Shown here: piece after piece, positions 1-63,483 of the stretch
Layout of the letters: the number at the start of each line of letters is the position of its first letter
Position numbering within the stretch: position 1 is the first letter of the stretch
Assembly: GCA_002633005.1 (NCBI GenBank)
Contig: NMRA01000602.1
Span: forward strand, 62,001-126,000
Length of the DNA stretch: 64,000 nucleotides
Source of the DNA: Phoronis australis
Lineage: Eukaryota > Animalia > Phoronida
Direction: 5' to 3'
The notes under the pieces: generated by a model
Seen by the model: the letters and a program-made list of their open reading frames with translations, nothing else
What the model was told of the DNA's origin: nothing
The model's database searches: none
Translations under genes and position numbers: made by a program

Positions 1-240
1 GGCGCTTTGGGCAACTGGTTTACCGGGGAGATCAAAACACACGTGCTTATTGCCGATCTGTTTGTGGTGCTTTTCATAAAAAGATATCTGCAGTCCACAA
101 TGGTAATGAATGTTGGTGTGGTAACAGCACATTTAGATACAGTCTACCGCCTGGTAAATGCAACACTCCGTGTAGCGGTGATACTGCGGAAAGTTGTGGC
201 GGCCCAGTCGCTGTGTATATGATGCTATCAGAACGAAAAG
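1..240 (+). CDS. WSC-cluster gene 1, WSC exon subtype B (5' end truncated by window edge)
   Basis: Not in the ORF track. Frame from nt 3 reads RFGQLVYRGDQNTRAYCRSVCGAFHKKISAVHNGNECWCGNSTFRYSLPPGKCNTPCSGDTAESCGGPVAVYMMLSERK, with the WSC cysteine pattern (CxxxC...GxxCxCG...C..PC.G....CGG). Ends at phase-1 donor AAG|GTAAGG at 241. Confidence 0.9.
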
Positions 241-2426
241 GTAAGGCCTAAGGAATTTCATTTTGTAAGTATTCCAGCACACCAGATTTACTTACAATAT
301 TTTGAACTTTCCTGGATGGATCAACATCTACATTTCATTATCGTGAACCATAATTTCCCTTTTGAAACATTAGACTGTGTGAATGTGTGTCCCTGTAGTC
401 CATATGAGCCCTTTAAATCAGTAAGGTTTCCAGACACAGATGACGATCATGATACGCTGTACGCGGTACGACACCGCGCATTTCTCAGTGACGCCACCAG
501 AATTGATGCTGCCAAAGCGAAAGATAGTGCTCAGACAGTCTCCGAGGTAGAAGTCAAAACAGATGCCCGGAAGTGGGATACTGCTGGCAGACAAAATTAA
601 AGATCGAAACCATTTGAAAAATCCCATTTACGATCAATGAACGCTGTTTGATACCTTTGGCAATTTTTTAAACATTCTGTTAGAATCATTTTTATTTCAA
701 ATTCCCTGGATGGAACGCCTTTTCAGACCAATTTATCTGGTTGTTGACAAACTATCTTACTAGCTCCCACGCAGTCCCAAAAGTGCATGACCTGAGACCT
801 ACTGTAAGTCAATTGTCCCACCTCATTTACAGTAATGGCTCCATGCATAACAACTTCCCTAAAGCAAATCTTCCACAGGTTATGTGGCCGGTAAATGATG
901 GTTTACGTGTCGTGAGCACCAAACCTTTCAACACCAACATCCATATCGACGTTGACGGATCCCTTGTCCACCTAAATCCTGCAATGTTTTTTGATGTTCG
1001 TGAATAATGTACATACAGCAACTAAGACGCATAAGAGACGTTTTTCTATGAATGTCTTGATCAATATCCAGTGCCTAATCAATCTGACCGAGTGCAAATA
1101 ATTGCTGTAAATCGCAACCATGGTCAAATTCATGCCAATATCATATGAGCAATTACTTTGCTGATCTGATAACCGGTAATTGACAAATTAATTAATATTA
1201 GTTTATCATGCACAAACACAGCCTAAAATAGGTTTGGGCTCATTTTTTTGAAAATATGAACCTTTTACTAAGATTCATGGGATACGTTCAGAGATATGAT
1301 ATGTTCATTCGCCGAATTTTGGTAGTTCTTGCTTTTTTGGTGGACTTTTGTCTCGTTCGCTACTTTCTTTGGAGATTTTGTTTCTCTGAGGCGGACCGTT
1401 TTGACCACTTCGCCAAATATGGAGGGGGGCTTGTTCGAACCCCCCCAAGCTACCCCCTGGATGTTTGCATGTTTATAAAGGACTTTTTAATGATCACTAT
1501 GTATGCACACTCCCGAAATACATGCATTTGGAGTGTATTCATTACATGGGCGACAGGAAAAAATGCCACCTCTTATTTATCAGCCTCGTGAAGCCAAACC
1601 AAGGTGTTGCTGAAAACAGTCTGCATCCATAAAGTCGAGTTACTTGACAATAACTATGAATGAGCTGTTGTTTAGCGCGCAACTGGGGAAAATGTGAGAT
1701 TAATTTGTATTTTAGAAGCCATTAAGTGCTGCATTAATTTTACTACAGTGTCCTTTTAAGGCGAAAGTTTGAAGATCATTTGTCCGGTTACAAAAAATGT
1801 GACACTGCAGTATAAAAACAACCTTCATAACCATTTGGCATTCATGTTCCATGTTTGCAAAGAAGTCGAAACTCGTGTTACTTGGTGGTAGTGACATGAT
1901 TCCATGTCCGTGACCGAACATGGGAATCATCCACAACTCAAGAAGACAAGCTTTAGTTTTTATTGGGGTCATTGACTGTAGTTCTTAAATACAGAGCTTG
2001 GAAAGTGACCGAGATTTGAAAGAATAAAATTTAAGAGTTCTACTTTCCCTTAAAGGATTATCGATTTTTAAAAAATCTCATATGTTAAGACTTTGGTCAT
2101 GTACCGCTGGAATTCTCATCGATTGTAAAGCTGTTTCCTTAAGTGATGATCACATGTGAAATCCATACGCCTTACATTTTATAGTCTGCAAAAGACCAAC
2201 GGCAATAACTAAGCAATGCCGGAATTCCGTGATAGAGAACCAAAATTATGGTTGACAATTCGGCTGTCACAACTTTAATCACTGTATACGGTACAGAGTA
2301 AAAAATATGGGGCAGATTTTTCTTTTAACATTAACGAAGCCGTACTAACAAAATTAGCTAAAACTGAAAAATGGCTAAGTGTAAAAAAGTAATTGGGTTC
2401 AGTTTGCCTTGCGCAAGCCTTTCTCC

Positions 2427-2553
2427 CGTTCAGTAACGCTAAGACCTCGCTAAAAGCAAGACTTCGCGGGATTATGTGAGATATTGCTGTGTATTTTAAA
2501 TAAAATCACGTGGGTTTGGATAGATTTTAGGTAGGTTCTAGCGTTACTGAACG
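2427..2553. repeat. Short inverted-repeat element (MITE-like hairpin) in gene 1 intron
   Basis: CGTTCAGTAACGCTA at 2427-2441 and its reverse complement TAGCGTTACTGAACG at 2539-2553; imperfect pairing extends to about 29 nt. Confidence 0.65.
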
Positions 2554-3156
2554 CACGACTGATTTTACAAAATTTGCGTCATGCGGTTGAAAGTTCTAGG
2601 CACGTGGTGTTTTTCGGCAAAAAGATCATTTTTACGGTGCATGTGACAAGACAAATCGTACATTCGTCACAGGTTTATTGCATGAGTATACTGTGTTGTT
2701 CATGTTGAATTACTCAAAGGTTCTTTTAAGAAGCATTTCACAGGCTTATGCACAATACAACGAATAGCCCCAAATCAGCATTTAAGTTTGAAGTTTGCAA
2801 TTACGCGACCAGTAGCATTGCCAAAAGTACTCACCATTCTAAGAGTTCTATCATTGGAAGACTTTCAAAAGCGTTTCTATGCCGAAATTATTTTTGTTGT
2901 ACCAGACAGTAAAACAATAGCAAGAATTTTCTGTCACAATAAACTAACCGGAAGCTAAATTTAGCACTTGTAGAGAGTGACGCCACCTCTTGGATGTTTC
3001 GCAAGAAAAGGTCTGTGTTGCGAGTCTGTTTTCTATAATCTAAGGCTTAACTAAACCAGTATTGCATACCGTAGGGTATCGTGAGAAGAAAACTATGTTA
3101 TCATATGAGATCATGTAGGGTGATGTGATATAACACTGTTGCACTCAATATTTCAG

Positions 3157-3488
3157 ATCTAAATATCGGATTGAAGATGGCCGAAGGATGTTATATTTGG
3201 CGCCGAGATGAAATAATTGCCAGTAAAATCAATTCAACTTCGAAATACATGGATCCAGTTGGACTTACAAAAACAAAATGCAAGCAAAGATGCCGTTTGA
3301 ACCAATTCAAGTTGGCTGCCGTTCGAGCAGGAAAAATATGTCTGTGTGGCAATACCTTAAACACTGAATTTGGCATCCTAACCGACAGAGATTTGTGCAA
3401 AACGCCGTGTTCAGGCAACCCTTTGGAATTTTGTGAGAGTGAAAGTCACGTGTTTGTAATGAGCTCTAGCTTGCCCTCTGTCTCTTAG
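3157..3488 (+). CDS. WSC-cluster gene 1, terminal WSC exon subtype C
   Basis: Acceptor TTTCAG| at 3151-3156 (phase 1, compatible with the donor at 241). Reads LNIGLKMAEGCYIW...LTKTKCKQRCRLNQFKLAAVRAGKICLCGN...CKTPCSGNPLEFCES..VFVM, stop TAG 3486-3488. Confidence 0.9.
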
Positions 3489-3972
3489 CTTAATCCTTAC
3501 TCCAGTCCATCTTTGTCCCAATCTGGAGTGAGTTTGACAGGCTGTGGTGACCACATATTAGTGATTTTGACTTTTCTACTTGAAGTTTTAGTCTAATAAG
3601 GAGTGAACGTGTTTCTCTCACATGCTAAAAGGTAGTTTAGGCAAGAACTGTTTTAAATTCAAATTTCGAGCAGTTTTAGAAATTAATATACTAAAACATG
3701 TATGTCTGTTATGTCATGTACCTTCGTTTATTACCTGTGGGGATAGTACGAGTGGGGAATTTTCAGTGTAACGTGTTCCGCAGAATCGCGGGTGTTTTCG
3801 TAGAATCAAATTTCTCCTCGAAGGCAAGGATATTATAAGTTACACAAGGATGTCTGACTCTGACCGAAATGCGCTACAGCTGTACATGTAGCGCTACCTT
3901 CTGAAAGGAGCCCACGTACAGCATATGGATGACTGCAATGTCAGTGTATCTTCTGGTGCTGACAAAACATAA

Positions 3973-11997: not shown

Positions 11998-13439
11998 CTA
12001 ACAAACACTATTTATCAGAGGGCTAGAAAGACCCTTCTGTAATAGAGGTCTAACAAATACTAGCTCAATAAGGGTGCACCATTAACTGGAACAAGTACTA
12101 CCTATTCTATTATTGAGAACCATTACGATACACAATCAACTGCCTAACTGCGACTCGTAACTATTTATCCCATGAACCGGGTACCGCGCAACATATTCGC
12201 TATATAAGCAGCTAAATTATACTATGATTGTACGTTAAACAACAACTATATACACTCTAAAGTCAGATAGTTATACACACATGGGATGCAATATTCTATG
12301 CTGAAATACTTAAACAGTGTGACTGACAGTCTGTTCGATCTAACAGAAACTCCAGTATCCGAGAAAACTTGATTCGCTTTACAAATCTTACTAACGATTG
12401 CCGCTAAACTCAAGAAACACCAGTCACCAAAACTTCATAACAATACAAAAGCAAATACGGAAAAACAGCCTGCCGGTCAAGCTATTATTAATCTAGTATG
12501 CAATGTCACTGGTAACAACTGGAATAAACCGACTTACTGAAAGAGATCAAATCACAGCGCGGAAGATATACTGCCACCTATAAAGAAATAAACAGCGTAA
12601 TAAGTAAGTGAAACACAATGGCACAAGCAATGACAGCAATGATACACGGCATAAACACAATCAGACGCACCTGGAAAAACGTTGATACAAAATTAGAAGC
12701 ATAAGGTATAGCACAATGCATAATGAAAATTATCAGTTATAAGACGAAAAGTTTCTCAAGGTTGTATTAAACATATAATGGGATTATTTATAGCAATGTT
12801 ACAATCAAAATCTCCACGAACTATTTCATACAGCTGATGCATTAGTTTTTAGCTTATCTCCCCACAGATGTGTTTAATATCTAGTACTGGAAATAGTACA
12901 ACAAACACTAACAGACTCGAGTCAAATAAACAAGCACTGTCTAAATCATGTCTATCAACGAGCAGTACACAGCGAGTTGCTGCTCTTTACTATATTCTCC
13001 ATAATGAGTCCCTCATAAAAGAAATACTCAACTTACCAATCCTCTGCGTTTTCCTAATTCTCATGTGCGTCAAATGTATGCTGTGGGTCAGCTTGTCAGC
13101 CTGGCAGGGCAACAAAAGCGGCAAGCAGATCCCGCGAAAAAGGATGGGCTAGCTAGAAACCGTTCACCCACATTGCACCAAATGTGTACTGGATTACTTC
13201 AGAATTACTCCTGCGCTATGAGTCGTACGATATGGGGACCTCTCGTGAAAAATCGAAATGGAGATGTTGCTTTGTTCAAGTGTTGTAATTTTGTTTATTG
13301 ATATAACTTCCTCATATGCATAAATAGGATTAGATTGATTTATATGTAATTCGTTCAAAGTACCAGCTCAAAACAAGTTAACTTGCTGTGAGCGGGGTTT
13401 CATGTTTGTAGCGAAAAATATCCATCTCGTCCACAAAAT

Positions 13440-13800
13440 TAAAACAGTTCTCCACTGCCTGGCTTTTGGCAGTGCTTTTCGTCGGTGAGATGTGTCAGTG
13501 TTTTCTATCGTCCACATCCGCATCCATTCCTTCCCCGTACTAACAAACTGCCATGTTGACACCATACCTTGCACCAGCTTCTTACCACTTCCGACATTTT
13601 AACATCTTTCTCGAACACCATTGCGTAAGAGTTTAGCATAGCAGTCCTCGATTAACCCATGTCACCTTCTACAATGTACAAAAACAGTTAACACACAAGG
13701 TAATGCTTACCTCGTGCACTGCATAATTTAATCAGTCGGGTAGCTGTTATAGGTTTAAACTTGGTTATCGAAACTTTGCCAAGTTTGGCAATCATTTGAA
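13440..13800 (-). pseudogene. Possible degraded THAP-domain remnant
   Basis: Minus strand reads KFKPITATRLIKLCSAR then donor G|GTAAGC, and downstream IEDCY...KKLVQGMVSTWQF, resembling THAP LCSxHF and LxxxAVPTxF motifs. Contains stops. Confidence 0.3.
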
Positions 13801-14053: not shown

Positions 14054-14341
14054 CTGGTATTTCCGAATGCATAACGAAGTTTAAGAAAAAGCCACCGCAT
14101 GTTTCTTCTTTATTACCGCTGCAAGTCACATTGCACTTATGGAGTGGCTGAACTCCGTGACTGAAGAAGTCATCACCACACCAGCACTGATTGCCTCCTT
14201 GTACTGCGGCAAACTTCAACCTCAATGTGCCACACATCTCACGACACCGAGCTCTTGTATTGTGCTTTCCTTCATAAACGTTGGAGCCTGGAGTCTGAAC
14301 TTTCGAAACCGCCCAACAATTGTGTACATCATCTATGTGAT
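14054..14341 (-). CDS. WSC-cluster gene 2, WSC exon subtype B
   Basis: Acceptor TTGTTACAG|, donor CAG|GTAGGA; 288 nt, phase 1-1, open. Reads HIDDVHNCWAVSKVQTPGSNVYEGKHNTRARCREMCGTLRLKFAAVQGGNQCWCGDD...CNVTCSGNKEETCGG..NFVMHSEIP. Confidence 0.9.
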
Positions 14342-15776
14342 CTGTAACAAATTTGGTTTTTGAAGAGACACCTACATTCAGCTTTGTGCGTCTCGTTAGG
14401 ACTCATAGTAATCTTTGGGCCTTAGTTAAACACCGGAGCTAAAACGAGAGCCCGTTATGGATCAGTAAGTTCTTCGAGAAAGAAGTTTTCAAGTCTGCCT
14501 GCCTCCTTTAAGAAATTGAACATAATTTGCATTTGTTTCATGCACCGTATGTTGTAAAAATGTAACAGCGCCATCTAGTAGATTACGCTATAAAAAGGTG
14601 TCTTATAAAATGCTGGGCAAGACTCTACCGGATGTTTAGGGGTTTCAACGTCATTACCACCCTGGGGTCACAGTGGCCCGTAAAACTTGATTGATATATC
14701 TAAACACCAAATCTATCGAGAATTAGAAGGTTTTTAGAACCTTTGGAAATTCTATCAGGGCTCTGAAGGTTTTCTAACTTCTGGTTTCTCTGCAGGTGAT
14801 AACCGATGCCCACTGGGCTGCTGCATGGTAGGTAACCAGTTGCTTATTATCGGCTTGCATCATCCAAAGAATATCAAGGACTGTAGATTCAGGTACACAT
14901 TGCTGACTCTCATCGTTACGAGTTTGCCTGAATTTTCATTGCTGTCAATCTTCACATGGACCCTGACCTAGTGTTTAATGAAGATTCTTGTAATTACAAG
15001 CTTGTTAAGCTCATTATTGCAATCATTAACACAGCGAAATTTGGCACTTAACAGTCGAGATCTTCCTCGCTGTTTATTTCAATTTCAATATCGCAAGCAC
15101 AAGCAAGCGAATTAATGACGGTTTAACCAATGCAACATCCATGCTATCTCGCAAGCAAATATACTGTAGTTACCAAGAAACCGTGAACGACATAGCAAAA
15201 AGCCCCTTGTTCAGGATCACAATATTATTATCACCAGTAGGATAGAATGCAGTTGATCCGTAAATTTCATGGGCAGAAGGTTAGGTGCCATTCTTGACCA
15301 TTTACTGATATTCCAAGTAGAAACTTTTCGGTGAGAGAATGACAACCTCGGCAGTCTTGGTCAAACGCTACACTAGCAGAACCAACTCTATAAATGATAT
15401 AACATTTTAGTCGTATTTAACTGGTAAAACCACAATTTCTTGTTTCAGCCAATGAATGACAAACAGCGGCAGCAAAAGGTGATCATTTCAAACGGTCTGT
15501 CTCATCGCGCCAAATGCGTTTTTCGACGGTAAAACTGACATCATGATTTTACATAAAACTCAAAGCTAACAGTGTTGACCAGAGAACTATTACGTTCTCG
15601 GGCTTAGGCTATGATATACACACCCAAAAGAGTGTTTTTACTGAAAGAAGTAAATGAATGGAGCATGAATTAATATTGATTTATCAGTAATGTTCCTAGT
15701 AATTCACTAGTAAATCCACCAGTGATGGTTAAATTTTTGGTTTGGTTGCAAGTCTTACCTTTTACAACGTTCTTAC

Positions 15777-16087
15777 CTAATCTGTAGTTGGTTTTCATAA
15801 TGTATACGCTCGATATGCCGCCGCACTCTTTACTCACGCGTCGCCAGTACAAGGAATTTTGCATTTTGACATTGACGTCACTCGATGGTTTCTCCACTCG
15901 TTTCCACACAAACACTTATCTCCCTGTTGCAGTGCAATGTAGCTGAACCATCGATTTCCACATATTGACGCACATCTTCGTCGATCATTCAATGGTCCTT
16001 CGTAAGCTAGAACAAAGGAGTCGCTTCCTTCGTTGGCGTGGAAGCAATCGGGCAAATGGGACGGTTTAAACATATCCATATCTATAC
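15777..16087 (-). pseudogene. WSC-cluster gene 2, WSC exon subtype A with internal frameshift near 15838
   Basis: Acceptor TTGTATCCAG|, donor TAG|GTAAGA; length 311 nt (3n+2). One frame gives ...LAYEGPLNDRRRCASICGNRWFSYIALQQGDKCLCGN...CKIPCTGDA*, and the domain continues in another frame as VSKECGGISSVYIMKTNYRL. Confidence 0.8.
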
Positions 16088-18064: not shown

Positions 18065-18103
18065 CGTTTACTTTTATTAAAACGGTGATGAAATAAGTCG
18101 CAC
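18065..18103 (-). CDS. Gene 2, 39-nt micro-exon encoding the signal-peptide hydrophobic region
   Basis: TTTTTTCAG|...|GTAAGT, phase 1-1, encodes (G)ATYFITVLIKVN(G); homologous to 34611-34649. Confidence 0.8.
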
Positions 18104-18719: not shown

Positions 18720-18753
18720 CTAGGCTGCAGATTCGTGCAAGGTTGTTCTTCAT
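18720..18753 (-). CDS. Gene 2, first coding exon (34 nt CDS)
   Basis: ATG-initiated MKNNLARICSL(G), donor G|GTAATA; homologous to 37905-37938 and 63366-63399. Confidence 0.78.
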
Positions 18754-18811
18754 TTCGAGTTTCCCTACGTAACGGTGAAATGTGCGATAACTCTTATATG
18801 AAACCTGACCA

Positions 18812-18832
18812 TTTATACTGTTGTAACACCTG
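18812..18832 (-). promoter_or_regulatory. Gene 2 core promoter: E-box-containing CAGGTGTTAC, 5-nt spacer, TATAAA
   Basis: Minus strand CAGGTGTTAC-AACAG-TATAAA, about 59 nt upstream of the ATG; same module in genes 3 and 5. Confidence 0.72.
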
Positions 18833-20000
18833 TGTCATTTAACTGCTGTTCACGCCCCTGTACCACGAATCTGACAGGACTTCTGTGACATGTAGAAATT
18901 AACAGAAGACTGATAACAGTAATAGAGAACCTTATTTTTTCAAATAAGCTGAACGAGAGGGACACATAACATGTGACAAATTCTAGTCTGTATTGAAAAT
19001 TTCAAGAAATGAAAAAGTCCCGGGTCAGATGGTTTGACAAATAAATTTTTCACATTTTTCTGGAAAGATTTAGATTATTTTTCTTGAAGACAAGTGCATA
19101 AAAGATATGAGTAAACCGGAATTTAAAACACACAAAAACGGAGGCTGTAAAGTCCAAATCCAAATAAGNTTGCAAGGAGATCCGAAAATCTCCAAGCTTC
19201 ATGAAAATCAGAACTATATGTACAGATTCCCGAAATGGTTCGAAAGATTCGACGAGAGCCTGAGCTGGAGCTTAGACTTCAGGTAAGGACCAAAATGTTA
19301 TAGTGGGCTGCTCATGAACTAAACTATCATCCTCTGCTAACGGTATGACACATGTGGGTAATCTTGGCTTTGGTTTTCTGAAAGTGGAGCTTGATTCCTC
19401 TTTCTAGCTCTAATCATGGGAGTAGCTCACCTCTGGCGAATTTCTTGACTATTTGAAGGTTCTCAAACAATATTTTATGTAACTTCAAATTCGTTACAAT
19501 GGCACCCGTAATTTTTAAAGCAACGAAAGCAGAATAAAAGAACTACTGATAGGATTTTGTGAAAACAAAGACAGATGGATACAAAATCGTACACCTGAAC
19601 AACACATAGACCTAAACACGTACACAATGCCCGAGTAAAGCGGTTTAATTTACGTAGTGAGTGGGAAACGACACAATGATATTCTTATTAAGTCTACTTA
19701 AATCCAAAACAGCAGCGTGATAGGAAGACAGCTTTGTTAACCAATTGAGGATGCGTGTGAGTTACTGAACAGATAAACTTATGTAAATAAAACGGTGTGC
19801 GCATGTACATGTATATAATAACACAAAGTGTCTTTATGTGGCATGGAATACTTACCGTTTACTTTTATTAAAACGGTGATGAAATAAGTCGCACCTGAAA
19901 AAATCCATTTTATAAATAGCTAGACAAGGTTTTCCGATATACGCTACACAGTCGAACTAATTAGGTGTTACCCGCTGCAGTGTTTTTCTTTACCTATGCG

Positions 20001-22275
20001 CATAGATTACTCACGAGACACTGATTAAGCGTCATTCACATTAGTGTTTGATATTTAAAACATATAGCATGAGAACAGTAATTGTTTGGCATTGTGTTTC
20101 TTTTGTTTGAAGACAAGTTGCTCCAGTAACCTATTTCACAGTACCGAAGACAGTTGCAAAGCGTTATCTACGGAATTCGACGGTTTTACTCGTTAGTCAC
20201 TAAAGCCTTGTGCCAGTTGAATTGGCATGCACTATTTTTACACGCATATCTACAAAACTGCAAAAGCATTTCTTCAAAATCTCAACGGAAAAAATATGAT
20301 TTTTGAAAATTAGATTTTTCCCATTAATTTTACCAAGTTTCAAAACCGTATAAAATACTGTCTCGAAATTTGAGTTGTCTTCTGTACTTTTGTAGATCTT
20401 TACTTTTGTTATAATTCAGAGGAAACAGATCAGAAAAATGTCAACAGGTTTATGACTTATAGCGTTTCTCGAGGACGTGCAGATGTTACGTTATTTTTGA
20501 CGTTGCCGCGGCAACCGAATGTTTTTCTCAAAATGGGTTCTTGTGAACGCCTTATCACGAGCAACACTACGACTGATTTTTATTGAAATCTGTCAATATT
20601 TGCAGATTTTGATAAAACACTGTTCAAGACCAATTTTCTTTGTGTGTTGTTTACGAGAATCAGGAGCCTCATCAGTCCGACGCAACACCTCACTCCTATT
20701 GGTGTGAGTAAACGGACTCTCTCAACAAACTTTATGAAGAAAGGAGTTGGAATTTTTGTTATTGACTGATGTAATATATTGAACATGTCGACAGATTTTC
20801 ACAACTGCCGAAATTAGAGAATAAAAATACACGAAATACACTATGCCAATAAAACGCTGGTTAGGTCATTTTCGTAGTAACGTTTATTGATGTGATGGTA
20901 GTAAAACTAAACTAAAGTCATTTGTTTGGTTATAGTTGTACACACTATTCTAGCCAAACAAACGGTTCATATGAGTGACGAAAACGCTAATGGGCTGATT
21001 AGTCAGGCAGACGAACTACATGTATTCGCGAATTTAGTGGTCATTTTCCGTCATTTGGTTCTTTTTCTAACCACCCGACTTGCTAAAAAATTCTGCAAAC
21101 GAGCGCATGCGCCTGTGTAACCGAAATAAATCCTTGTCTGTAGCCGGCAGTGTTCTGTTTCAAGATGAGTTAAAACCAAAAATGAACATATCGTACCGCG
21201 TTGGTTTCAAATTCATTAAAACTAATTGACCGGGCACCAGAGGCCGTGTGAGCGCATGCTCATTCAGTGTTTGTTGACAAAAAGTTGTTGTGGTCAGACG
21301 TTAGGGAAGTTAAAAAGTTGAGGCAAATCTTAGAGTTACATGTAAGTCAATATGAACAGACCACTGGTCTATAAAAATAATTGCAGGCGGTCTGGTACAC
21401 GTTGCACCAGGCGTGCGCAGGCCTCGCATGTGGGCCCATTGCACTGACCACCTGGAACCTCTTTATGCTTTATTAATATATAGTTAAAACCGAGATGAGG
21501 AGCTAGAAACCTGACTCAAGGGTCTAGCAGTGTGGTCCAGTTGGACTCGAACCCACTACCTCGAGTAAAAAAGGCGGGCACCTATCACATTGTACTATCG
21601 TGCAGGACCAAATTGTCTTAACAATGCAAGATTTTAAATTAGCTGTTGTGATTGAAAATTTTACCAAAAAGACGAGCTGGAATATAATTGCAGTTACAAC
21701 AGTCGTCAATTCGATAACTATGCGAATATGAGGTTAACGTTATAAGTCGATATTCCATTTTGCTGTCGGAAAATGGTCACGATTAAGACAGTATTTATAA
21801 TCATGTTTTATTTCACGGTAAATGCTGGCAATAGTTTCGAGGAAATCTACCAATGATGCATTACTGGTTATGGGTTACCTGTTACCAATTCACCAGGATA
21901 TGCAGTAAACGCTGCCTTGCCACAAATAGATCATCCCAGAAATTGGTTGAAAGCGCACAATAGTTTAATTCAGATTTACTGAATGTTTTAGCTTAAAATC
22001 GTTCATTTGACACCTGCCTGGTTAAATATCAGTCCATTTAAACAAAATTTTCAAAAAAATTAAGTACGCCGATTCAGGTCGTCCCTGTTTAGAAGGTGTT
22101 TCACGTTTCCACCTCCGAGAGGTGATAAATATACATGTACATGTGTTGTGACGGTCGAGAGCGATGAACGGTGAGCATAGGGAAAGAAGGATCACTTGCA
22201 ACTTTTGACCTATTCTCACGAGTCTATCAAATGGTTATTAGAAAATGAAAATGTCGTTTCTACATTTGTGCAGGG
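20001..22275. mobile_element. ~2.27-kb insertion present in copy B but absent from copy A (unclassified, likely composite repeat)
   Basis: Copy A reads ...ACCTATGCG|TACTGTTTTCAAGCATC contiguously at ~18209; copy B has this block between the same flanks. No clear TSD. Confidence 0.55.
21533..21609 (-). other. tRNA-like sequence (SINE head or tRNA pseudogene)
   Basis: Minus strand GGTCC...TAGTACAATGTG (A-box-like)...GGTTCGAGTCC (B box)...GGACCA. The ends can pair but the anticodon arm cannot. Confidence 0.55.
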
Positions 22276-25200
22276 TACTTTTTTCAAGCATCACTCCATG
22301 TTGTTCACTTTCAATATTGCAAGAATTTCTCTTAAAGTATCACCAGATTTATTATTTTTGATGTACAAGCTTGGATCTGGACATTGTTGGCGTAAAAACA
22401 TAAACAATAGCTAAAAATAGAGTTTTATTTTGCAATTAAGAAATCTTGCCCTTTTTCACTTCTCTAGTCAATGCGTTACTTTACACGTTTCTAGCCCATT
22501 GGAAGCTTATATGAGGAATTTTAAGGCACATGTTACTTCGGTGTTAAGGCTTTTGTCAGCAACAAGGCTCCACGTTACATCATATAACGATTTCATACAC
22601 AACGGTTGCTATTAGTTACCGTCAAAGGTTCGTAATCCGTCGTTATATTTTATACAATTTCATCAGTGCGCAATGATAACATGTATCCATGTATTGTATA
22701 TGCCAATACTGATCCTCTAACCGATATCATGCTGGTCAACATCTGAGTTACTAGAAACACCGACACCATGCACCCTATAAAATATTACCTAGGCTGCAGA
22801 TTCGTGCAAGGTTGTTCTTCATTTCGAGTTTCCCTACGTAACGGTGAAATGTGCGATAACTCTTATATGAAACCTGACCATTTAAACCGTTGTAACACCT
22901 GTGTCATTAAATTGCTGTTCACGCCCCTGTACCACGAATCTGACAGGACTTCTGTGACATGTAGAAATTAACAGAAGACTGATAACAGTAATAGAGAACC
23001 TTATTTTTTCAAATAAGCTGAACGAGAGGGACACATAACATATGACAAATTCTAGTCTGTATTGAAAATTTCAAGAAATGAAAAAGTCCCGGGTCAGATG
23101 GTTTGACAAATAAATTTTTCACATTTTGCTGGAAAGATTTAGATTATTTTTCTTGAAGACAAGTGCATAAAAGATATAAGTAAACCGGAATTTAAAACAC
23201 ACAAAAACGGAGGCTGTAAAGTCCAAATCCAAATAAGACCACATTTATAAAAATGGAGACCAAAACTTTGCTCAATAGCGTTTCTGTGGACCTTTGTCTC
23301 GTTTTCTCCGACGTTTTGTTTCTCCAAGGCGGACCTTTTTCTCATTTCGCCAAATGAGCGGTTCGTTCGAGTCCCCTGAGCTCCCTGAGTGCGCGCATGG
23401 ACTGTTGTAAGAATGGTGATCGATTATCATAATGCTGCTGCTATGAATTACTTTGCAATACTTTTACAGCGGCTGAAGACTCGTTAGTGGATGATCTTCA
23501 TCTTGACATTCACCCGCGTAACAGTGAATTATACGATTTCTTGTATTCAACGCATGAATGTAACACCTGGATGACTTAATTACCCTCCACGCCTCTGGTT
23601 CCTCAATCTGTCACGGACACTGCTAAATGACAGGGAACGAATTTCAACGGCTGTAATTCTTTCCCCGTCATATTGTACCAACTGACGCATATAACACCTT
23701 AACCAGGAAACCATGAACAGATGTGATATTCAGGTGGCTTTTTATACTGTGGAAATTATAGCCCTGCGTTGGCTTTCTAGCCCCTATACAAAGTAAATGC
23801 AGTCCACGTATCCCACGGGACAAATGACACATGGTTCAAGGCATGGAATTTCCCTTTTTGAAGAAGATTTCCTTTTTTGATTTCAATTTTCTCTTATTAG
23901 ATTTCCTTTTTATTCTTTCTTTGTCTCTTTTTAATAATTATCATGACATTATTCATACAGAAACGTTTATTTCTGTTAAATGTTACTACAAAATGAAAAT
24001 AATTCTATCACACCTATTTATATGTGGAGCGATATCATCACCTGGAACGTTTTCCATCTTTTAGTCTCTGATCATTGCCAGCCTTGATGGTGCATTTAGT
24101 TTTACTCAGTATTTGTGAAATACGTCCCTCTTAGTAATTGCAGAACACATGTCGAATCTCCTGAAACAGGCCTCAAACTTACCAGAGCCAGTGTGCCAGT
24201 TTGGCCCGGCTCGGATGTGCTCCAAAATAATCTCATCTTTTTCAGTTTGCCCTCAGATGCTTGTGTTTCCAACACCTACTGCATAAGTGCTTGGATTAAT
24301 AGTTGTAGGACCGTGTAAGTTAGACTAGCTTGCCTACTCCTCTGAAAATCTTTGCATTTATCTCACGCTTCTTAGTGCCCCATTGGACTAAATACAAAAT
24401 GCTTCAGGAAAAGCACTTGGATGCAGCAGGAAAAGCTCACATGAAAAAGTTCAGCATCTTCAAGAACTCAATACATATACTTTTGATTTCGCGTTGTCTT
24501 CATAATGTTTCAGAAGTCGCTGCAGCTTTGGCTACTCCCTTCACTGCCGTTACGTCTTTCCATCTTGATGTGTTAGGACCTTCTGACACTTACATCACAG
24601 TATTGAAATTCTTAAGTGTGCGTGAAACGCTAGCCATCACCAGGTCGGTTACTTAAGGATATTCTCAAATGATTTGTCTCAGGCCTTACCAATTACACTG
24701 GTAGCAGATTCATGTTTTTATTGTGAGCCATGTGTTTTAACAGTGCACTAGACTAGACTCGGATTTAAAGCTAACACAAGATGTAACTTTAATATTCCAT
24801 CTTTTTTGTCATGCTGCCTCAGAGACATTCAGTCCAAAACATGCTCAATGCTATCCTGCAACCCGCCAAAATCCCAATTGTCACGGAGCAAAACTACTGG
24901 ACATTTGCTGCCGTAGTCCGACGAATCTCCATTGAAGGCCAGCAGCTTCACACAGCGCGATTGGACACCAGTCTTTGGTTTAAACCCCGGCTAAGTTTTG
25001 AACAAACAGGTGCAGGCAGAGAATGACCACACTGTTAATGAGAATTTGAGAACACCGGTGCGGAAAAAAAAACCCACAGCACGCATTCAAAAATTCAATA
25101 GACAAGTATCAGAGAATTTGGGTTTTGCTTGGTTTTCGATGTTTTCAAATCGGACTTAACTAGAAGTATTTCATAGGATTGCTGATAATGAGGTTCTAAA

Positions 25201-26892: not shown

Positions 26893-27266
26893 CTACCTAC
26901 CTTCCAGTCCAGAATCCATTATAAACATACATGTTTTTGACCCACAAGTCTGTTCAGGATTTCCTGCACATGCCACGTTACAGTTATAGTCGTCAGTCAA
27001 CCAGGCTTTGGGATTAAACATAGTGCCGCACCAGCACTCGTTCCCGTTTTTGACTCCCGCTAACTTGCATCGTATCTTCTTACATTTGAGCTTGCATAAT
27101 TCCCTTGTCATGTTTTTGATGTCCATAGGGCCCAGTGTTTTGAAATTGAACTCGGGAGCGTACATTGCGTATGGTTTATCGCTACCCGGGTTTAAAAGTG
27201 ATCTGCGATCTAAAGAGTAACCGTCAACGTAGCATCCTTCGGCAATCAAAAGTCCTCGATCTCTTT
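26893..27266 (-). CDS. WSC-cluster gene 3, terminal WSC exon subtype C
   Basis: Acceptor TTACAG| phase 1. Reads RDRGLLIAEGCYVDG...NMTRELCKLKCKKIRCKLAGVKNGNECWCGT...CNVACAGNPEQTCGS..MFIMDSGLEGR*. Confidence 0.92.
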
Positions 27267-28061: not shown

Positions 28062-28352
28062 CGTCACGTTGTGAATGCATTATAAACATTCTACCACCAT
28101 CACCACCGCACTTTTCCAACGGATTTCCAGTACATGATTCGTTACAGTCTTCTACTTCCTTCTGTTTTTTTCCAAAGAATTTGTCACCGCACCAACATTT
28201 ATTTCCCCCGTGAACGGCGGCAAATGCTTTGCGAAAGGCCCCACAGAAAGACTTACAAAGTTTATGACTATTCGAAGCACCTGCATACACTAAATTGGCT
28301 AGACCAAGAGATGTATACACCTTCCAACATTTATCAACTAGCTGCGGATGTT
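28062..28352 (-). CDS. WSC-cluster gene 3, WSC exon subtype B
   Basis: Acceptor TTTTTTCTACAG|, donor G|GTAAGT; 291 nt, phase 1-1. Reads HPQLVDKCWKVY...CKSFCGAFRKAFAAVHGGNKCWCGDK...CNESCTGNPLEKCGG. Confidence 0.92.
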
Positions 28353-30927: not shown

Positions 30928-31266
30928 CGAGGTTAAAACCAGACTCCATGATCAAATTTCTCAGTGGACCTCCACAATGTTGTATTCGGTCACCAGTGCA
31001 GCGCGCTTGGATGCATTCCGAATAATCTACCTCTCCATATCTGCCGTAGTGGTTCCCACACCAACATGTCTCCCCATTTTGAACAGCAGCGTATCCATAC
31101 CATAACTCCTTGCACGAGCGTCTACACGAAGATCCTGTCAACATGTTTGAGCTAGTTGTCACAGCATAGGCTAAGTCTGGACTTAGTGAAGAGTCTTTAA
31201 AACACCCAACTGTGCCAGGCGGTCTAGGCGGTTCAGTTGGTTCATCGTGTAGTTCAAAAAAGAAGC
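30928..31266 (-). CDS. WSC-cluster gene 3, WSC exon subtype A
   Basis: Acceptor CTGCTTCTAG|, donor G|GTATGT; 339 nt, phase 1-1. Reads FFFELHDEPTEPPRPPGTVGCFKDSSLSPDL...CRRSCKELWYGYAAVQNGETCWCGNHYGRYG...CTGDRIQHCGG. Confidence 0.92.
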
Positions 31267-33334: not shown

Positions 33335-33376
33335 TAAAAGTCTCACGCTAAACGTAAGCAGTCTCCGACTGTCACA

Positions 33377-34610: not shown

Positions 34611-34649
34611 CGTTAACTGTGATCAAAACGGCCATGAAGAAAGTCGCAT
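34611..34649 (-). CDS. Gene 3, 39-nt micro-exon encoding the signal-peptide hydrophobic region
   Basis: TTTTTCAG|...|GTACGT, phase 1-1, encodes (D)ATFFMAVLITVN(G); same length as and homologous to the gene 2 micro-exon. Confidence 0.8.
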
Positions 34650-37904: not shown

Positions 37905-37938
37905 CCAAGCCAAACATTCGTGCGTGCTTGTTCTTCAT
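37905..37938 (-). CDS. Gene 3, first coding exon (34 nt CDS)
   Basis: MKNKHARMFGL, donor G|GTAATA. The spliced model 34+39+339+291+374 = 1077 nt is a continuous ORF of 358 aa. Confidence 0.8.
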
Positions 37939-38005
37939 CTCGACACGTTTTCCTGCGTAACAGTGTGATCTCCTGTATAAACGTATGCATGTAGAAAGCT
38001 ATCCA

Positions 38006-38026
38006 TTTATATCGCTGTAACACCTG
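38006..38026 (-). promoter_or_regulatory. Gene 3 core promoter: CAGGTGTTAC-N5-TATAAA
   Basis: Minus strand CAGGTGTTAC-AGCGA-TATAAA(TGG), about 68 nt upstream of the ATG. Confidence 0.72.
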
Positions 38027-43520: not shown

Positions 43521-46500
43521 CAAAAGTCCTTTCAATCTGTCTCAACTTCAATTTTTTGGCTAGGCACACTTCCACCGTCAATATAAATAGAGACTGTGTA
43601 CCTATAGCGATGGGGCCTTATCCTGAACTCTAGTTTTGTATGCTACCTGCTCCTCCAGCCGGTCCAGGGGCATACAAAGGCGACTGAAAAATCAAAAGCT
43701 AATGGGCAATATGAGCTTTGGAAGTTTGCGTCTCCTGCTGTAGAAGTTTGGTGAAGACACTAGTACCACCGCACACCGTCTAATTTAGATTAGCCTAGTT
43801 CTCTCACATATGGAATTTTCCCACAGAAACGTCCCATGTGTTCATTTGAAAAGAACAAATTGCATGAATGAATCGTCCATTCCCTCACATAGTGAGCAAA
43901 GTGTCACAAGAAATTCACAGTTGCTCGGCGGCTACGTTACTGATAAACCCACTCGTGTACGAGTTACTTCCAAAATATACGCTGGGTCGTTTGTTTGGAT
44001 TCTTACTTCATGGTCCTGATAGATCGGAAGCCCAGAGCACTTAGCATAGATGAACGAGGTACCAACATCTGGCAACGGGAGCATTTAGAGTGTACTTCAG
44101 TGTGTACAGAAATGGACGTCTGCCGTTGTCTGCACTCTGGGTGTGACCCCTGGGGTCTTGAAAAGTGGCCACAATTGAGCTAGACTAGTTATTCGAGGTA
44201 CTGGCCAAAACTGATTTAAAACAAACAATAGTTCCGCACTTAACACCAAATGCTCCAGGACAGACAAATTGCACTCTGAAATTGGTCCAGCAGAATCCAA
44301 AAAGACCCCCCTCCAAAATGAGCTAGAACATACATTCGAGGTACGACAAAAACCAAGTCCATGTGATTCAATACATGTCACTGGTCATCAAATTCCCTAT
44401 GACAGACAAAATACACATGCTTTTCTTATGTACCCGTGTATAAAGGATAACGACAGATAATCATTGGGGTTTATTTTACTAAACCCGGTCAGATTATTAT
44501 CGAACTTGAAAAAGAAATAAAATAAACATCGTGCATAAAACACACAGAACGTCGGGAGTTTATGAATTGCTTATCAATTACTTACCAGTTTTTCATTTAC
44601 CACTTTTTCATGCAATTTAACTTAATTATATATCTATGTTGACTCGCACCTCACAATTTGCCACGGCGAGCCCTTTGGAAATTTATAGGCGCAGTGCAAA
44701 TGCTGTCAATGTCTAATTGAATGTTTTGCTAATTAACGTGTAACTGCGTGGCATCTGAAAACAGTGATGAGAAAAACATTAAGTGGCAAGCTGTTGTTCC
44801 TATTCTTAATAAAATGTGCCAGATGCAAGTTTGGGCTGCAATCAGGCAATCCAGGTGTTTCATTATGCACGATATAAGGAGCCAACTGTCGCTCATGGAT
44901 CTGTACAGAAGTGGGTTACAGGAAGGTCGAAATGAGGAAAGAGCATACACAGATCTGCTACCTGGGTAATAAAGTGGTAACTGACACCGACGATAGTTGT
45001 ATTGGTACAATAATACCATCCGCGTTACTATAGCTATTGTTATCCTATTGCTTTATTACCAGGATAGTTATTGTTACTATTTGCTTATGTATAGATTGAA
45101 TGTCATTCAAAAAGTTCCTTTGAATCACCATTTAATCGGTCAATTTTTTATTGCTGATCGTCAAAATGTTACAGTGTCCACGGCAAGTATCCCAACTTAC
45201 CCAATCACGCAGACCCAACATCGTCTGAATGCGCACAGCACATGTGGCAATAGACTTTGGAGAGACAAACTAGGGTTCCCCTCTTCTCTTAACTTCCTTC
45301 TTCTAAACTTAAACTACACAACGAGGATTCTCCCGAATTCTAGAAGACGTAATGCTGGTTGTCCACCCGCTAATTGAAAATGGTGAATCAACATGCTACG
45401 TTATTATAAATTCGCCACGCAAAACCATGTAATTACTGGGAAATAATTTAGTGATATTTTCAACAAAGACCACCAATTAGACCCCAAGCGGTTCATATTT
45501 TTGTTTACTGTAGCTTTTGTCCTTGTAAATTTGTCATGCAGTTCAGAGAATTTGTTGGTATAACAAATTATAGGTCAGCTCAGGGCTTTTGGCATTTGTC
45601 TATTCGTTATACACTCCTCAAAAGGCAATTTAGTGTTAATCCTTGTAAGATTACCGTACTTGTAACAGTTTTTGCACAATTCTTTATTAATTTACAAAGT
45701 GTGTGTATGTCTTTGTTGTACAGGGAGTCCAGTGCTTTAGATTTTTTATTATTTCTCCTCGCGAACGTTCTTCATTCAAACTGCTGTAAATGTGTAAGAT
45801 GGTCCAACAACACCCAATCTTCCCCTCAATCTGTTTCAACATGTCAATAGGACAATCAGGAATGCCACTCTATTCACCCACATGTATTATATGTCTTAAT
45901 TGAATTGTTGACATTTCAGGAGCGACTTACTTGATAGCCATTTTATGGACAGTTGACGGTATGAACTTTTGTTATCATTTCAAACACTGTACAATAGTCT
46001 GTGGTTACTGGGCTTCCCCATCCGCCTCTATGCTCCAACCGATGTTCACCTAACCCTATCTTTCCGTCCCAATCTCCCATGCAACTTCGTTCCGATGTTC
46101 CCCCCTCTAGGTTCCCCCTTTCCGACGTGATGAAATCTCGGGATCATAAGTCTGGGCATGTGAGCACTGATACGCCGCAAAATGTAACAATTTCGCAAAA
46201 TGTAAAAACTGTTACATTTTACGTCATATTTACATTTCACGTTGCTGGACCTCTCCTAAAATGTAACAAATTGTCCACGATAGTCTGATTTATTTCAGTC
46301 AGTGTTTATTTGATTTGGAGTCATCGCCAAGGCTCCAAACAACGGGTTCTGTCTACCACCTGATTTACGAATGACAATTTTTAAAAAACATTGTGGTAGA
46401 AGAAAATAAAAGCACGCATGTATTTGCGGCCATGTTGAACGAATTTGCCAACCCAACTGCAAAAGTTCGCCTTTGATAAGAGCAAAAGTGGCGGCATAGC

Positions 46501-47921: not shown

Positions 47922-48239
47922 GATTCCGATTCTCTGCGAAAACACTCACGCTCAGTGAACTTGGCTGTTACGTTGATATCAAACAGCAGCCGGATATGAA
48001 CCTCCTGCTGTATGAAGGAGAACTGAATACCCATGAGAAATGTTCGAGAGAGTGCAAAGCACGATGGTATTTGTATGCTGCTGTTCAAAACGGCGACATG
48101 TGTTGGTGCAGCAATACATTTGGGAAACACGGCCGCGCAATCAAGACTGATTGCGAGCAGCGTTTGTGTCCGGGAGACCCACGGAAATTTTGTGGCGGTC
48201 ATCTTCGCAACTTTATAATGAGAACCGGTTACGCACCAG
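47922..48239 (+). CDS. WSC-cluster gene 4, WSC exon subtype A
   Basis: Acceptor TTATTGCAG|, donor CAG|GTATAA; 318 nt, phase 1-1. Reads FRFSAKTLTLSELGCYVDIKQQPDMNLLLYEG...CSRECKARWYLYAAVQNGDMCWCSN...CPGDPRKFCGG. Confidence 0.92.
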
Positions 48240-49133: not shown

Positions 49134-49418
49134 AATCCAAAGAGCATGTTGGAAAATGCTGGACAATTAACACCAGGAATACCATGACAAACGCATACAA
49201 GGGCAAACTGAACAGCCATTCCTTCTGCAGTTCAGTTTGTGGAGCCATCCAAAAAAAGTTTGCAGGAGTGCATAATGGTAACCAGTGTTGGTGTGGAGAC
49301 GATCTCTTCTTTGATGACTTGGCTCCTGACAACGAGTGTGTAGTACCATGCAGTGGCAACTCCGAAGAAAAATGCGGCAGTGAAGGAGTAATGATGCTTC
49401 TTCACTCGTTTAAAGCAG
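49134..49418 (+). CDS. WSC-cluster gene 4, WSC exon subtype B
   Basis: Acceptor AATTCAG|, donor CAG|GTGAGA; 285 nt, phase 1-1. Reads SKEHVGKCWTIN...CSSVCGAIQKKFAGVHNGNQCWCGDD...CVVPCSGNSEEKCGS. Confidence 0.92.
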
Positions 49419-49982: not shown

Positions 49983-50179
49983 TTTGATATTCACAATACA
50001 AGTATCAACAAACACAGCATTTGTTTTAAAATTTATTTTCTTGCAATTTTTGTAGGCGTCAAACGTTCCGGTGCTTAATTAACATTATTTTTGAGACACA
50101 ATAACGTCACTATTGTATCTGCGTCCAACCCCTATATTCGAACAGTAACCATTTTCAATCATATTCCCTTCCATTCCAG

Positions 50180-50534
50180 TTGACGGTGTTATAGAAGGTT
50201 GCTACAGTGATGTCAAAACCAATGCCTTAACACATTTACTGAACGAAAACTCCAAACAGTTTTTCGTCAACCGAAATTATAAAAATCTTACAAAACTGGA
50301 TACCCCGGGGATAATAAAACAATGACGCCGAAGTTCTGTCAAAATTATTGTAGAACACGATCGTTTCGACTAGCTGGTCTCGAAGGTGGAGTCGAGTGTT
50401 GGTGCGGAAATAAGTTTAACGTCAGAGTTCTTCTCCTGGATAATCAAAAGTGCAACACGCCATGCAGAGGTGACCTTAGGCTAACCTGTGGAGGTCAATA
50501 TCGTATGTTTGTCATGACCACTGGCTTCAGCTGA
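50180..50534 (+). CDS. WSC-cluster gene 4, terminal WSC exon subtype C with apparent 1-nt deletion near 50290-50310
   Basis: Acceptor CCATTCCAG| phase 1 gives DGVIEGCYSDVKT...KLDTPGIIKQ* (stop 50323). The rest of the domain (MTPKFCQNYCRTRSFRLAGLEGGVECWCGN...CNTPCRGDLRLTCGG) is in another frame from 50322. Confidence 0.8.
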
Positions 50535-55174: not shown

Positions 55175-55374
55175 AGTCTCTTGCCGGTGTTCAGTCTCGG
55201 AGTCACTGTCACTGTTAAGCGCGTGGACATCAGAGCGTTTCCTGGGACTGGATTTTGGAGCTGGGCAACAGGACGCAAAATGGGACGACTTTGCTCTGCA
55301 GTTATAACATTCAACTCCCGACCTACGGGCAGGGCACTGTCCTGCCGGATGAGATTATCCACAATTGGTGCACT

Positions 55375-62749: not shown

Positions 62750-63237
62750 CACATTTCAGTTTTGCATTATTAATAAGCGAGATCAAGCTCATGTCATAGG
62801 CCACGTTTTGCTGATACAATCGGTCATGCGAGTTCCAACTGGCAGAGATAAATTGCGTCTTATCTCCCGGACTTCAAAGCCAGTCGGCTGTACTGCAAAA
62901 CCCAATGGCCAGTGTTTCAAACTTGTTGGCGAACATTGAAACGTGATGTCCACTACCTCAATACCACATGGTAGCACCCCAAAAACTGGTTGGATGGTAC
63001 ATAAATGATCTGGCTGTTGCTCAAACACAATGACCGAACAGGAAGTTCGGCCGCCACACTTGATCTCCGACAAACTGGTTAAACCACCGACCATGTGTTT
63101 TAGGTCCAGCCAGCTAGTTTTTGGAGTGAGACCACGCGGACAACACCTTTGTTGACTGGCCATCTGATTTTGCAGTCTAGTTGATTGGTTTTTAAGTTCG
63201 GTAAATGGTTGTGAAGTCCGACTAATTGTCGACCCCC
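62750..63237 (-). pseudogene. Possible heavily decayed downstream exon(s) of WSC-cluster gene 5
   Basis: Good acceptor TTTCTATATTCAG| at 63238. Scattered subtype-A-like fragments FLGCYH, FQCSPTSLKHWPLGFAVQ, TDCISK, RLLIMQ in mixed frames with stops; the WSC core CxCG is missing. Confidence 0.3.
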
Positions 63238-63365
63238 CTGAATATAGAAACAACAAGAAACCAAATAACGTGAATAGTGACCCTGATACAAGTTTATAAC
63301 AATACTAACAGTGGTCGCAATGATACCAGAAATAGCAACAATGCTATCAAGCGCAACATCATTAC

Positions 63366-63399
63366 CTAGGCTGAACACTCGAGTACGCGTGTTGCTCAT
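63366..63399 (-). CDS. WSC-cluster gene 5, first coding exon (34 nt CDS; gene probably a pseudogene)
   Basis: MSNTRTRVFSL(G), donor CTAG|GTAATG; same length, phase and sequence character as the first exons of genes 2 and 3. Confidence 0.65.
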
Positions 63400-63462
63400 G
63401 TCGGCTTCCTTTGTGTAATCCGATCCCCTTTCCAATAAACACATATGTGGAAAACAGGACAT

Positions 63463-63483
63463 TTTATACCTTTGTAACACCTG
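63463..63483 (-). promoter_or_regulatory. Gene 5 core promoter: CAGGTGTTAC-N5-TATAAA
   Basis: Minus strand CAGGTGTTAC-AAAGG-TATAAA, about 64 nt upstream of the ATG. Confidence 0.68.

What the first reader, a model, noticed from the sequence alone, without database searches (positions are those of the whole stretch)
1..63483. Cluster of divergent secreted triple-WSC (lectin-like) genes in birth-and-death evolution
Seen: ten WSC exons assort into four genes plus a fifth 5' end, in mixed orientations. They follow the pattern signal peptide + WSC-A + WSC-B + WSC-C, with no TM or catalytic exon found. Cysteines and subtype motifs are kept (A: W.xY.AvQ; B: CW...CG...AVhxGN.CWCG; C: EGCY...LA) while loops differ strongly between paralogs. 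Established: WSC domains are putative carbohydrate/beta-glucan-binding modules, known in animals mostly as parts of larger proteins (Kremen, polycystin-1, WSCD, xylosyltransferase). Inference: a stand-alone, locally expanded, fast-diverging secreted family suggests an undescribed glycan-recognition repertoire (innate immunity, mucus, adhesive or other gland secretion).
Basis: partly seen in the sequence, partly recalled or inferred. Interest (0 to 1): 0.85.

Follow-up and report, generated by a model that had tools for sequence, protein, structure and literature searches.

The report
Old cluster of secreted triple-WSC genes
This stretch of DNA, likely from an invertebrate animal, holds an old cluster of related genes that share one promoter-like motif and are each predicted to make a secreted protein of three WSC binding modules; only one copy is whole and intact here, and the proteins likely serve as binding components of a gland secretion, with sugar binding untested.

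Summary
Ten exons pass the Pfam WSC cut-off and an eleventh is decayed. They form four genes in A-B-C order. The signal peptide is split over two micro-exons behind a shared CAGGTGTT + TATA-like motif. Gene 3 is intact (358 aa, no membrane segment). Genes 2 and 4 carry 1-nt frameshifts, gene 1 is cut by the window edge, the 'fifth' gene is an orphan 5' end, and a dead sixth 5' end was found. The paralogs are old: synonymous sites are near saturation, introns do not align and pN is below pS, so fast or adaptive divergence is not shown. No A-B-C orthologue was found, but signal + WSC-only proteins are already in databases (Owenia, Macrostomum). The family lacks the aromatic residue kept in most WSC domains (yeast Wsc1 Y107), so glucan binding cannot be assumed. 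Four RNA data sets gave only trace reads and no splice joints. Best reading: a lineage-restricted, probably co-regulated family for a gland secretion, turning over by birth and death. The scan's index held nothing similar. Interest 0.4.

The parts
1..240 (+). Gene 1 WSC-B exon, cut by the window edge; phase-1 donor after 240
3157..3488 (+). Gene 1 WSC-C terminal exon, intact, ends in a stop
13400..13668 (-). Gene 2 decayed WSC-C exon (frameshift, in-frame stops, one cysteine lost); the 11th WSC exon
14054..14341 (-). Gene 2 WSC-B exon, intact, 8 Cys
15759..16087 (-). Gene 2 WSC-A exon with a 1-nt frameshift near 15837
18065..18103 (-). Gene 2 exon 2 (39 nt): hydrophobic and cleavage part of the predicted signal peptide
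18720..18832 (-). Gene 2 promoter-like motif (CAGGTG 18832, TATAAA 18817) and exon 1 (ATG 18753 to donor after 18720)
19856..22901 (-). Near-identical duplicate of gene 2's 5' module (motif 22901, exon 1 22822-22789, exon 2 19894-19856) across the N at 19169; likely an uncollapsed allele
23443..23625 (-). Dead sixth 5' end: motif at 23569, exon 1 with an in-frame stop and an altered donor context
26893..27266 (-). Gene 3 WSC-C exon, 10 Cys; strong phase-1 donor after 26901, or a stop at 26893 if read through
28062..28352 (-). Gene 3 WSC-B exon; predicted WSC fold
30928..31266 (-). Gene 3 WSC-A exon
34611..34649 (-). Gene 3 exon 2 (39 nt, signal peptide)
37905..38026 (-). Gene 3 promoter-like motif (CAGGTG 38026, TATAAA 38011) and exon 1 (37938-37905)
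44852..44965 (+). Gene 4 promoter-like motif (CAGGTG 44852, variant TATA) and exon 1 (44932-44965)
   Evidence: (E 7e-11, not in the training set)
45920..45958 (+). Gene 4 exon 2 (39 nt, signal peptide)
47922..48239 (+). Gene 4 WSC-A exon, intact
49134..49418 (+). Gene 4 WSC-B exon, intact
50180..50534 (+). Gene 4 WSC-C terminal exon with a 1-nt frameshift in an A-run near 50283
63366..63483 (-). Orphan fifth 5' end: motif (CAGGTG 63483, TATAAA 63468) and exon 1 (63399-63366); no exon 2 or WSC exon downstream

Best explanation
This is an old tandem family of five-exon genes, each predicted to encode a secreted protein of three disulfide-bonded WSC modules with no membrane anchor or enzyme domain, likely switched on together in one secretory cell type from a shared promoter-like motif, and likely acting as multivalent binders (of glycans or glycoproteins, untested) in a gland secretion such as mucus. 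Shown: exon structure, A-B-C order, shared upstream motif, an intact gene 3, lesions in genes 2 and 4, two orphan 5' ends, old divergence with cysteines kept. Inferred: secretion (signal peptide judged by eye, no SignalP), co-regulation, gland-restricted expression, and the ligand. Mechanism: three modules in a row would give avidity, so one protein could cross-link or coat polymers or microbes; different paralogs would prefer different ligands. Copies are gained by whole-gene duplication with inversion and lost piecemeal.
For: Pfam WSC on 10 of 10 exons; predicted model of gene 3 B matches Kremen1 and Wsc1 (Foldseek E 2.5e-5 to 7.7e-5, TM 0.66-0.71). Spliced gene 3 is an open 358-aa frame; the highest 19-residue hydropathy after the signal is 0.72. 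The 39-nt exon 2 is found for genes 2, 3 and 4 as the top-scoring distinct places of 2727 candidates. A profile from genes 2, 3, 5 finds gene 4's 5' module at E 7e-11; reversed-window best is 4.1 bits. The 5' module is 65-76% identical between paralogs while WSC exons are 42-54%. Near-zero reads in four data sets fit restricted expression. WSC proteins occur in other secretions: a Macrostomum transcript tied to prostate-gland staining (PMC4490696), bloodworm venom (PMC5336659), fungal glucan matrix (PMC9252488).
Against: No splice joint or real depth on genes 3 or 4 in any of four runs, which fits silence as well as tissue restriction; the runs were linked only by a species label with a 0.13 word share. 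No binding data. The aromatic residue at last-Cys+9 is Met or Leu in 9 of 9 aligned window domains, against an aromatic at +8 to +10 in 92% of 1318 database domains, and Wsc1 shows no evident glycan pocket (PMC9024836). The lower synonymous divergence of the signal exons is not significant (Fisher p 0.13-0.49). Gene 3's C exon has a strong donor, so its 3' end is open.
Confidence: 0.5

Rival explanations
1. The proteins are secreted effectors that bind proteins, not sugars (venom, seminal-fluid or adhesive components), using the WSC surface as Kremen1 does with Dkk1.
For: Conserved 5' module and signal exons with divergent mature exons is the layout recalled for toxin and defence-peptide families. 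Kremen1's WSC domain contacts Dkk1 (PMC9024836). Glycerotoxin has two WSC domains and at least three paralogs (PMC5336659). Aromatic cluster 1 is absent.
Against: No sign of accelerated change: pN is below pS in all 12 exon pairs and introns do not align. Glycerotoxin is about 1250 aa with EGF, CCP and a large unknown part; nothing like that lies in the window.
Confidence: 0.22
2. They are inducible soluble pattern-recognition lectins for beta-glucans of fungi or algae, silent until challenge.
For: Fungal WSC proteins bind beta-glucan (SiWSC3; PMC9024836, PMC9252488). Insect proteins with WSC plus PF00722 appear among the hits, one named beta-1,3-glucan-binding protein (P0041). Birth-and-death turnover is typical of invertebrate immune lectin arrays (recalled).
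Against: No challenge data. The cluster is small and old rather than recently expanded. The surface aromatics differ from fungal domains.
Confidence: 0.13
3. Gene 3, the only whole intact copy here, splices on from its C exon into further exons and is part of a larger protein.
For: A phase-1 donor of 6.2 bits lies where A and B exons have theirs; such donors occur at 0.15 per kb. No AATAAA or ATTAAA within 900 nt of the read-through stop.
Against: Genes 1 and 4 end in stops at the same place, and gene 1 also lacks a poly(A) signal within 900 nt. The 11 candidate acceptors between 26840 and 19900 open only 0-32 residues in phase 1. Gene 2 has its own 5' module, so it is not gene 3's continuation. 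At most a short tail is likely.
Confidence: 0.08
4. The cluster is dying and largely silent; what remains is a relic with little present function.
For: Two of three complete genes are frameshifted, two 5' ends are orphans, one exon is decayed, and reads are near zero.
Against: Gene 3 and both exons of gene 1 keep open frames, cysteines and splice sites despite near-saturated synonymous sites.
Confidence: 0.07

Closest known systems
Owenia fusiformis CAH1798175.1 (339 aa, unnamed) and Macrostomum lignano PAA64531.1 / A0A1I8JE00 (WSC-only arrays)
   Same: Proteins built only of tandem WSC domains; the Owenia protein and PAA64531.1 begin with a hydrophobic N-terminus. Their domains are the best matches to subtype A (35-42% identity) and fall in the same broad branch as A+B (SH-aLRT 92).
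   Different: Their repeats are all A-like; none has B- or C-type domains, none falls inside the window's clades, and they keep the terminal aromatic. They are uncharacterised database entries.
Fungal WSC lectins, SiWSC3 of Serendipita indica (via PMC9024836, PMC9252488)
   Same: Secreted WSC proteins shown to bind beta-glucan and enriched in an outer polysaccharide matrix; the functional model for the lectin reading. That SiWSC3 has three WSC domains is recalled, not read.
   Different: Fungal; fungal database domains score no better than generic WSC. Ligand of the window's proteins untested.
Kremen1 (PDB 5FWS/5FWW) and yeast Wsc1 (PDB 7PZ2)
   Same: Same fold and eight-cysteine pattern.
   Different: Both are membrane proteins with one WSC domain; Kremen1 binds the protein Dkk1. 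Wsc1 aromatic cluster 1 (Y24, Y107) is absent from the window's family.
Glycerotoxin of Glycera tridactyla (PMC5336659)
   Same: Secreted animal protein family with tandem WSC domains, several paralogs and gland-restricted expression.
   Different: About 1250 aa with EGF, two WSC, CCP and a long unknown region; no sequence comparison was made here.
Macrostomum lignano transcript RNA815_80.4 (PMC4490696)
   Same: Two WSC domains; its knock-down abolishes prostate-gland antibody staining, a precedent for WSC proteins in an animal gland.
   Different: Function unknown; its sequence was not compared here.

Membership tests
WSC domain (Pfam PF01822) | Score above the gathering threshold | tested here: met
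   10 of 10 exons, 42-65 bits against 27.8; the decayed 11th exon was not scored against Pfam
WSC domain (Pfam PF01822) | Eight conserved cysteines and PAN-like WSC fold | tested here: met
   8 Cys in 6 complete exons, 10 in gene 3 C, 7 in the three segments cut by the edge or a frameshift; Foldseek top hits Kremen1 and Wsc1 for gene 3 B
WSC domain (Pfam PF01822) | CGG motif at the last cysteine | tested here: inconclusive
   CGG in 6 of 9 tails printed, CGS in 2, CES in 1
Fungal Wsc1-type domains | Surface aromatic cluster 1 (Y24 at first Cys-3, Y107 at last Cys+9) | tested here: not met
   0 of 9 aromatic at Cys-3 against 50% of 1318 database domains; 0 of 9 at the aligned +9 column (gene 3 B has F at literal +8 through a one-residue insertion) against 92% at +8 to +10
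WSC beta-glucan lectins (SiWSC3 type) | Binding to beta-1,3/1,6-glucan | not testable with these tools
   needs a binding assay
Secreted stand-alone multi-WSC proteins | N-terminal signal peptide | tested here: met
   basic n-region, hydrophobic h-region and V-x-G end over two conserved micro-exons in genes 2, 3, 4; judged by eye, no SignalP available
Secreted stand-alone multi-WSC proteins | No transmembrane or catalytic domain | tested here: inconclusive
   met for the gene 3 model, for genes 1 and 4 at their 3' stops and for 137 other ORFs; gene 3's downstream donor is unresolved and gene 1's 5' part lies outside the window
Kremen, WSCD, polycystin-1, xylosyltransferase | Partner domains (kringle/CUB/TM, sulfotransferase, PKD/REJ, glycosyltransferase) | tested here: not met
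   no Pfam match at cut-off in 137 ORFs; each gene begins with its own signal exons
Birth-and-death multigene family | Intact, broken and relic paralogs side by side, divergent and not homogenised | tested here: met
Positively selected (fast-evolving) family | dN/dS above 1 overall or at sites | tested here: inconclusive
   pN below pS in 12 of 12 pairs, synonymous sites saturated in 8 of 12; no site test possible without orthologues
Expressed gene family | Spliced transcripts | tested here: inconclusive

The most novel reading that the evidence does not exclude
A lineage-specific family of gland-secreted WSC effectors built like toxin or defence-peptide genes (fixed promoter and signal exons, variable mature modules), with a remodelled WSC surface that has lost the near-universal terminal aromatic and binds a new class of ligand; it would be the first characterised stand-alone WSC repertoire in an animal.
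Probability: 0.2. Interest if true: 0.7.

Novelty: new variant of a known kind. Interest (0 to 1): 0.4.

Why it matters
What animal WSC domains bind is largely open: the solved animal case binds a protein and the glycan evidence read here is fungal. A small, soluble, WSC-only protein such as gene 3's product is an easy reagent for that question, and its natural loss of aromatic cluster 1 tests whether that patch is needed. The shared upstream motif could mark the secretory cell type that uses the family. Local arrays of secreted domain-repeat genes with live and dead copies are common in invertebrates (recalled), so without a ligand or a tissue this remains a modest finding.

Tried and rejected
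No whole genome is held, so family size outside the window is unknown. Single-exon signal-peptide scans found nothing convincing because the signal is split; the hydrophobic run at 63362 that I first took for the fifth signal lies in the intron after exon 1. Hydrophobic runs just before the A acceptors of genes 2 and 3 were rejected as intron ends. A six-domain gene 3 + gene 2 fusion was rejected once gene 2's own 5' module was found. The run search listed no RNA holder; covered bins are mostly repeats with loose ends. Protein searches gave generic WSC proteins only; searches list only the best 120 of 198 and 150 of 5046, ranked by whole-protein score, so single-domain fragments could be missed by them, and the word-filtered short search found 1 hit among 166 candidates. 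The Atlas gave generic WSC clusters. The tree is the quick search, not the finished careful one, on 75 domains from 21 chosen database proteins (at most 4 each) plus 10 window exons. Nine sub-threshold Pfam hits were treated as chance. Earlier-findings look-ups gave nothing relevant. No tRNA genes. No complex was folded. Supplements of the papers were not opened; gene-family tables there could list similar WSC expansions.
Full report
Observation. A six-frame motif scan and Pfam confirm ten WSC exons, all above the gathering score. A profile built from them finds one more, decayed, at 13400-13668 (17 bits; reversed-window control at most 4.0) and nothing beyond 50534. The acceptors are AG in phase 1 and the A and B exons end in phase-1 GT donors. 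The order is A-B-C in genes 2 (-), 3 (-) and 4 (+); gene 1 (+) shows B-C and is cut by the window edge. Same-subtype exons mostly score higher with each other than with other subtypes; gene 2 A is the exception. A quick tree groups B (93) and C (96) and joins A with B (94), with none of 75 database domains inside these groups.

The 5' ends. Scans for a single signal exon failed. A relaxed donor scan showed a recurring short exon. It is a 39-nt phase 1-1 exon present before genes 2, 3 and 4; these were the top-scoring distinct places of 2727 candidate micro-exons. Upstream lies a 34-nt first coding exon behind an invariant CAGGTGTT and a TATA-like box. A DNA profile from genes 2, 3 and 5 found gene 4's copy at E 7e-11 and a sixth copy at 23569 at E 1e-17; the reversed window gave at most 4.1 bits. 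The strict pattern CAGGTG-N5-14-TATA[AT]A occurs 3 times against a mean of 0.28 (maximum 2) in 100 shuffles. Together the two exons encode a 25-residue peptide with a basic start, a hydrophobic core and a V-x-G end, read by eye as a signal peptide. That CAGGTG is a bHLH-type E-box is recalled; no promoter function was tested.

State of the copies. Gene 3 splices to an open 358-aa frame with 26 Cys and no hydrophobic segment after the signal. Gene 4 has a 1-nt frameshift in an A-run in its C exon. Gene 2 has a 1-nt frameshift in A, an intact B and a C exon with a frameshift, stops and a lost cysteine; C seems to have died before A. The fifth 5' end (63483-63366) has a good motif, ATG and donor but no exon 2 or WSC exon downstream. 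The sixth has a stop in exon 1. Gene 2's first two exons are duplicated at 97-99% identity across a single N, likely an uncollapsed allele. Genes 1 and 4 end in stops. Gene 3's C exon has a 6.2-bit phase-1 donor where A and B exons have theirs; the background is 0.15 per kb. Eleven candidate acceptors in the next 7 kb open only 0-32 residues, so at most a short tail is likely. No other domain was found: 0 of 137 ORFs reach a Pfam cut-off (these were 125 of the 164 listed plus 12; ORFs under 50 aa were not scanned).

Age and selection. Paralogous WSC exons are 25-46% identical in protein and 42-54% in DNA; pS is 0.68-0.90 and pN 0.39-0.55, with pN below pS in 12 of 12 pairs. Introns do not align apart from exon flanks and one short repeat. 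The duplications are therefore old and the domains were kept under purifying selection; fast or adaptive change is not shown. The 5' module is 65-76% identical and exon 2 69-77%. Synonymous divergence in the signal exons is lower (pS 0.35-0.50) but not significantly so (Fisher p 0.13-0.49).

Expression. No indexed RNA holder was listed; three raw-read runs were added by species label to a contig set sharing 0.13 of the words. About a fifth of each run (11-13 million records) was laid on 21000-40400 and 42700-51400. Bins holding WSC exons without a neighbouring repeat had depth 0 to 0.9, exon 1 bins had 0, and no joint matched the models. The depth elsewhere comes from repeats. This fits restricted expression, silence, or a different species.

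Relatives. Searches with B and with A+C profiles returned generic WSC proteins of fungi, algae, protists and insects. The exhaustive search of 1.84 billion representatives listed the best 150 of 5046. Among the 261 proteins then held, the best B-profile domain score was 65.7 bits and none had an A-B-C pattern among those inspected. Stand-alone animal WSC proteins do exist: Owenia CAH1798175.1 (339 aa, three WSC), Macrostomum PAA64531.1 (eight) and A0A1I8JE00, and a Mytilus protein with five WSC repeats. So the design is not new, while this family is unmatched. The source organism was not determined; 'invertebrate animal' is inferred from gene structure and the nearest named domains.

Structure and binding surface. 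A model of gene 3 B (pLDDT 74) matches Kremen1 and Wsc1. In Wsc1, Y24 and Y107 belong to a conserved aromatic cluster needed for function, the surface has no evident glycan pocket, and Kremen1's WSC domain contacts Dkk1 (PMC9024836, passages). In the window's domains the Y107 column is Met or Leu in 9 of 9 and the Y24 column is aromatic in 0 of 9; in 1318 database domains found by a pattern the figures are 92% (positions +8 to +10) and 50%. The residue between the CxC cysteines is Trp in 8 of 10. The family has a changed surface, so a glucan ligand cannot be carried over from fungi.

Literature. Ten full-text searches listed no paper that describes a clustered, WSC-only secreted family in an animal; only listings were seen for most, and the library lacks most subscription papers. 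Passages were read in: PMC5336659 (glycerotoxin, two WSC domains, three paralogs), PMC4490696 (Macrostomum transcript with two WSC domains tied to prostate staining), PMC9252488 (WSC lectins in fungal matrix), PMC9024836, and passing mentions in 10.1101/2023.01.19.524809, PMC12911473, PMC4581086, PMC5460417, PMC8242945 and PMC6767649. No supplements were opened.

Verdict. The cluster is real and better defined than first described. It is most likely an old, lineage-restricted family of secreted triple-WSC binders made together in a gland cell type (0.5). Rivals are protein-binding effectors (0.22), inducible glucan sensors (0.13), a longer gene 3 (0.08) and a dying relic (0.07). It is a new variant of a known kind; interest 0.4.

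Noticed in passing
window 51675-56452 (-): Decayed LTR retrotransposon, likely Gypsy-type: terminal repeats of about 127 nt, 92.9% identical, integrase and reverse-transcriptase fragments. It lies between gene 4's 3' end and the orphan fifth 5' end.
   Followed up: partly
window 9151, 11752, 19169: Three single-N joins with near-duplicate flanks (2.47 kb at 95.9%, 150 nt at 98.7%, 831 nt at 98.9%, 964 nt at 96.8%), likely uncollapsed haplotypes of a draft assembly.
   Followed up: partly
window 26902-27264 (-): Gene 3's C domain has two extra cysteines and a long insertion after the first cysteine; they could form a fifth disulfide.
   Followed up: no
window 62792-63304 (-): A 171-aa ORF without a Pfam match lies just after the orphan exon 1, and an AG near 63237 would put it in frame with that exon; probably chance, in repeat-like DNA.
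   Followed up: partly
window 21373-21589, 30057-30800, 32240-33280, 37040-37100: Interspersed repeats with many related RNA reads and loose ends; reads at the first run on into a tRNA-like sequence, suggesting a SINE.
   Followed up: no
window 33476-35755 and 57083-57966: An old repeat of about 800 nt present as an inverted pair (71% identical) around gene 3's exon 2, with further copies near 57-58 kb.
   Followed up: no
window 40485-42684: Direct repeats (222 nt at 93.7%, 376 nt at 96.8%) flanking about 0.9 kb with two ORFs of about 150 aa and no Pfam match; possibly a small LTR-like element.
   Followed up: partly
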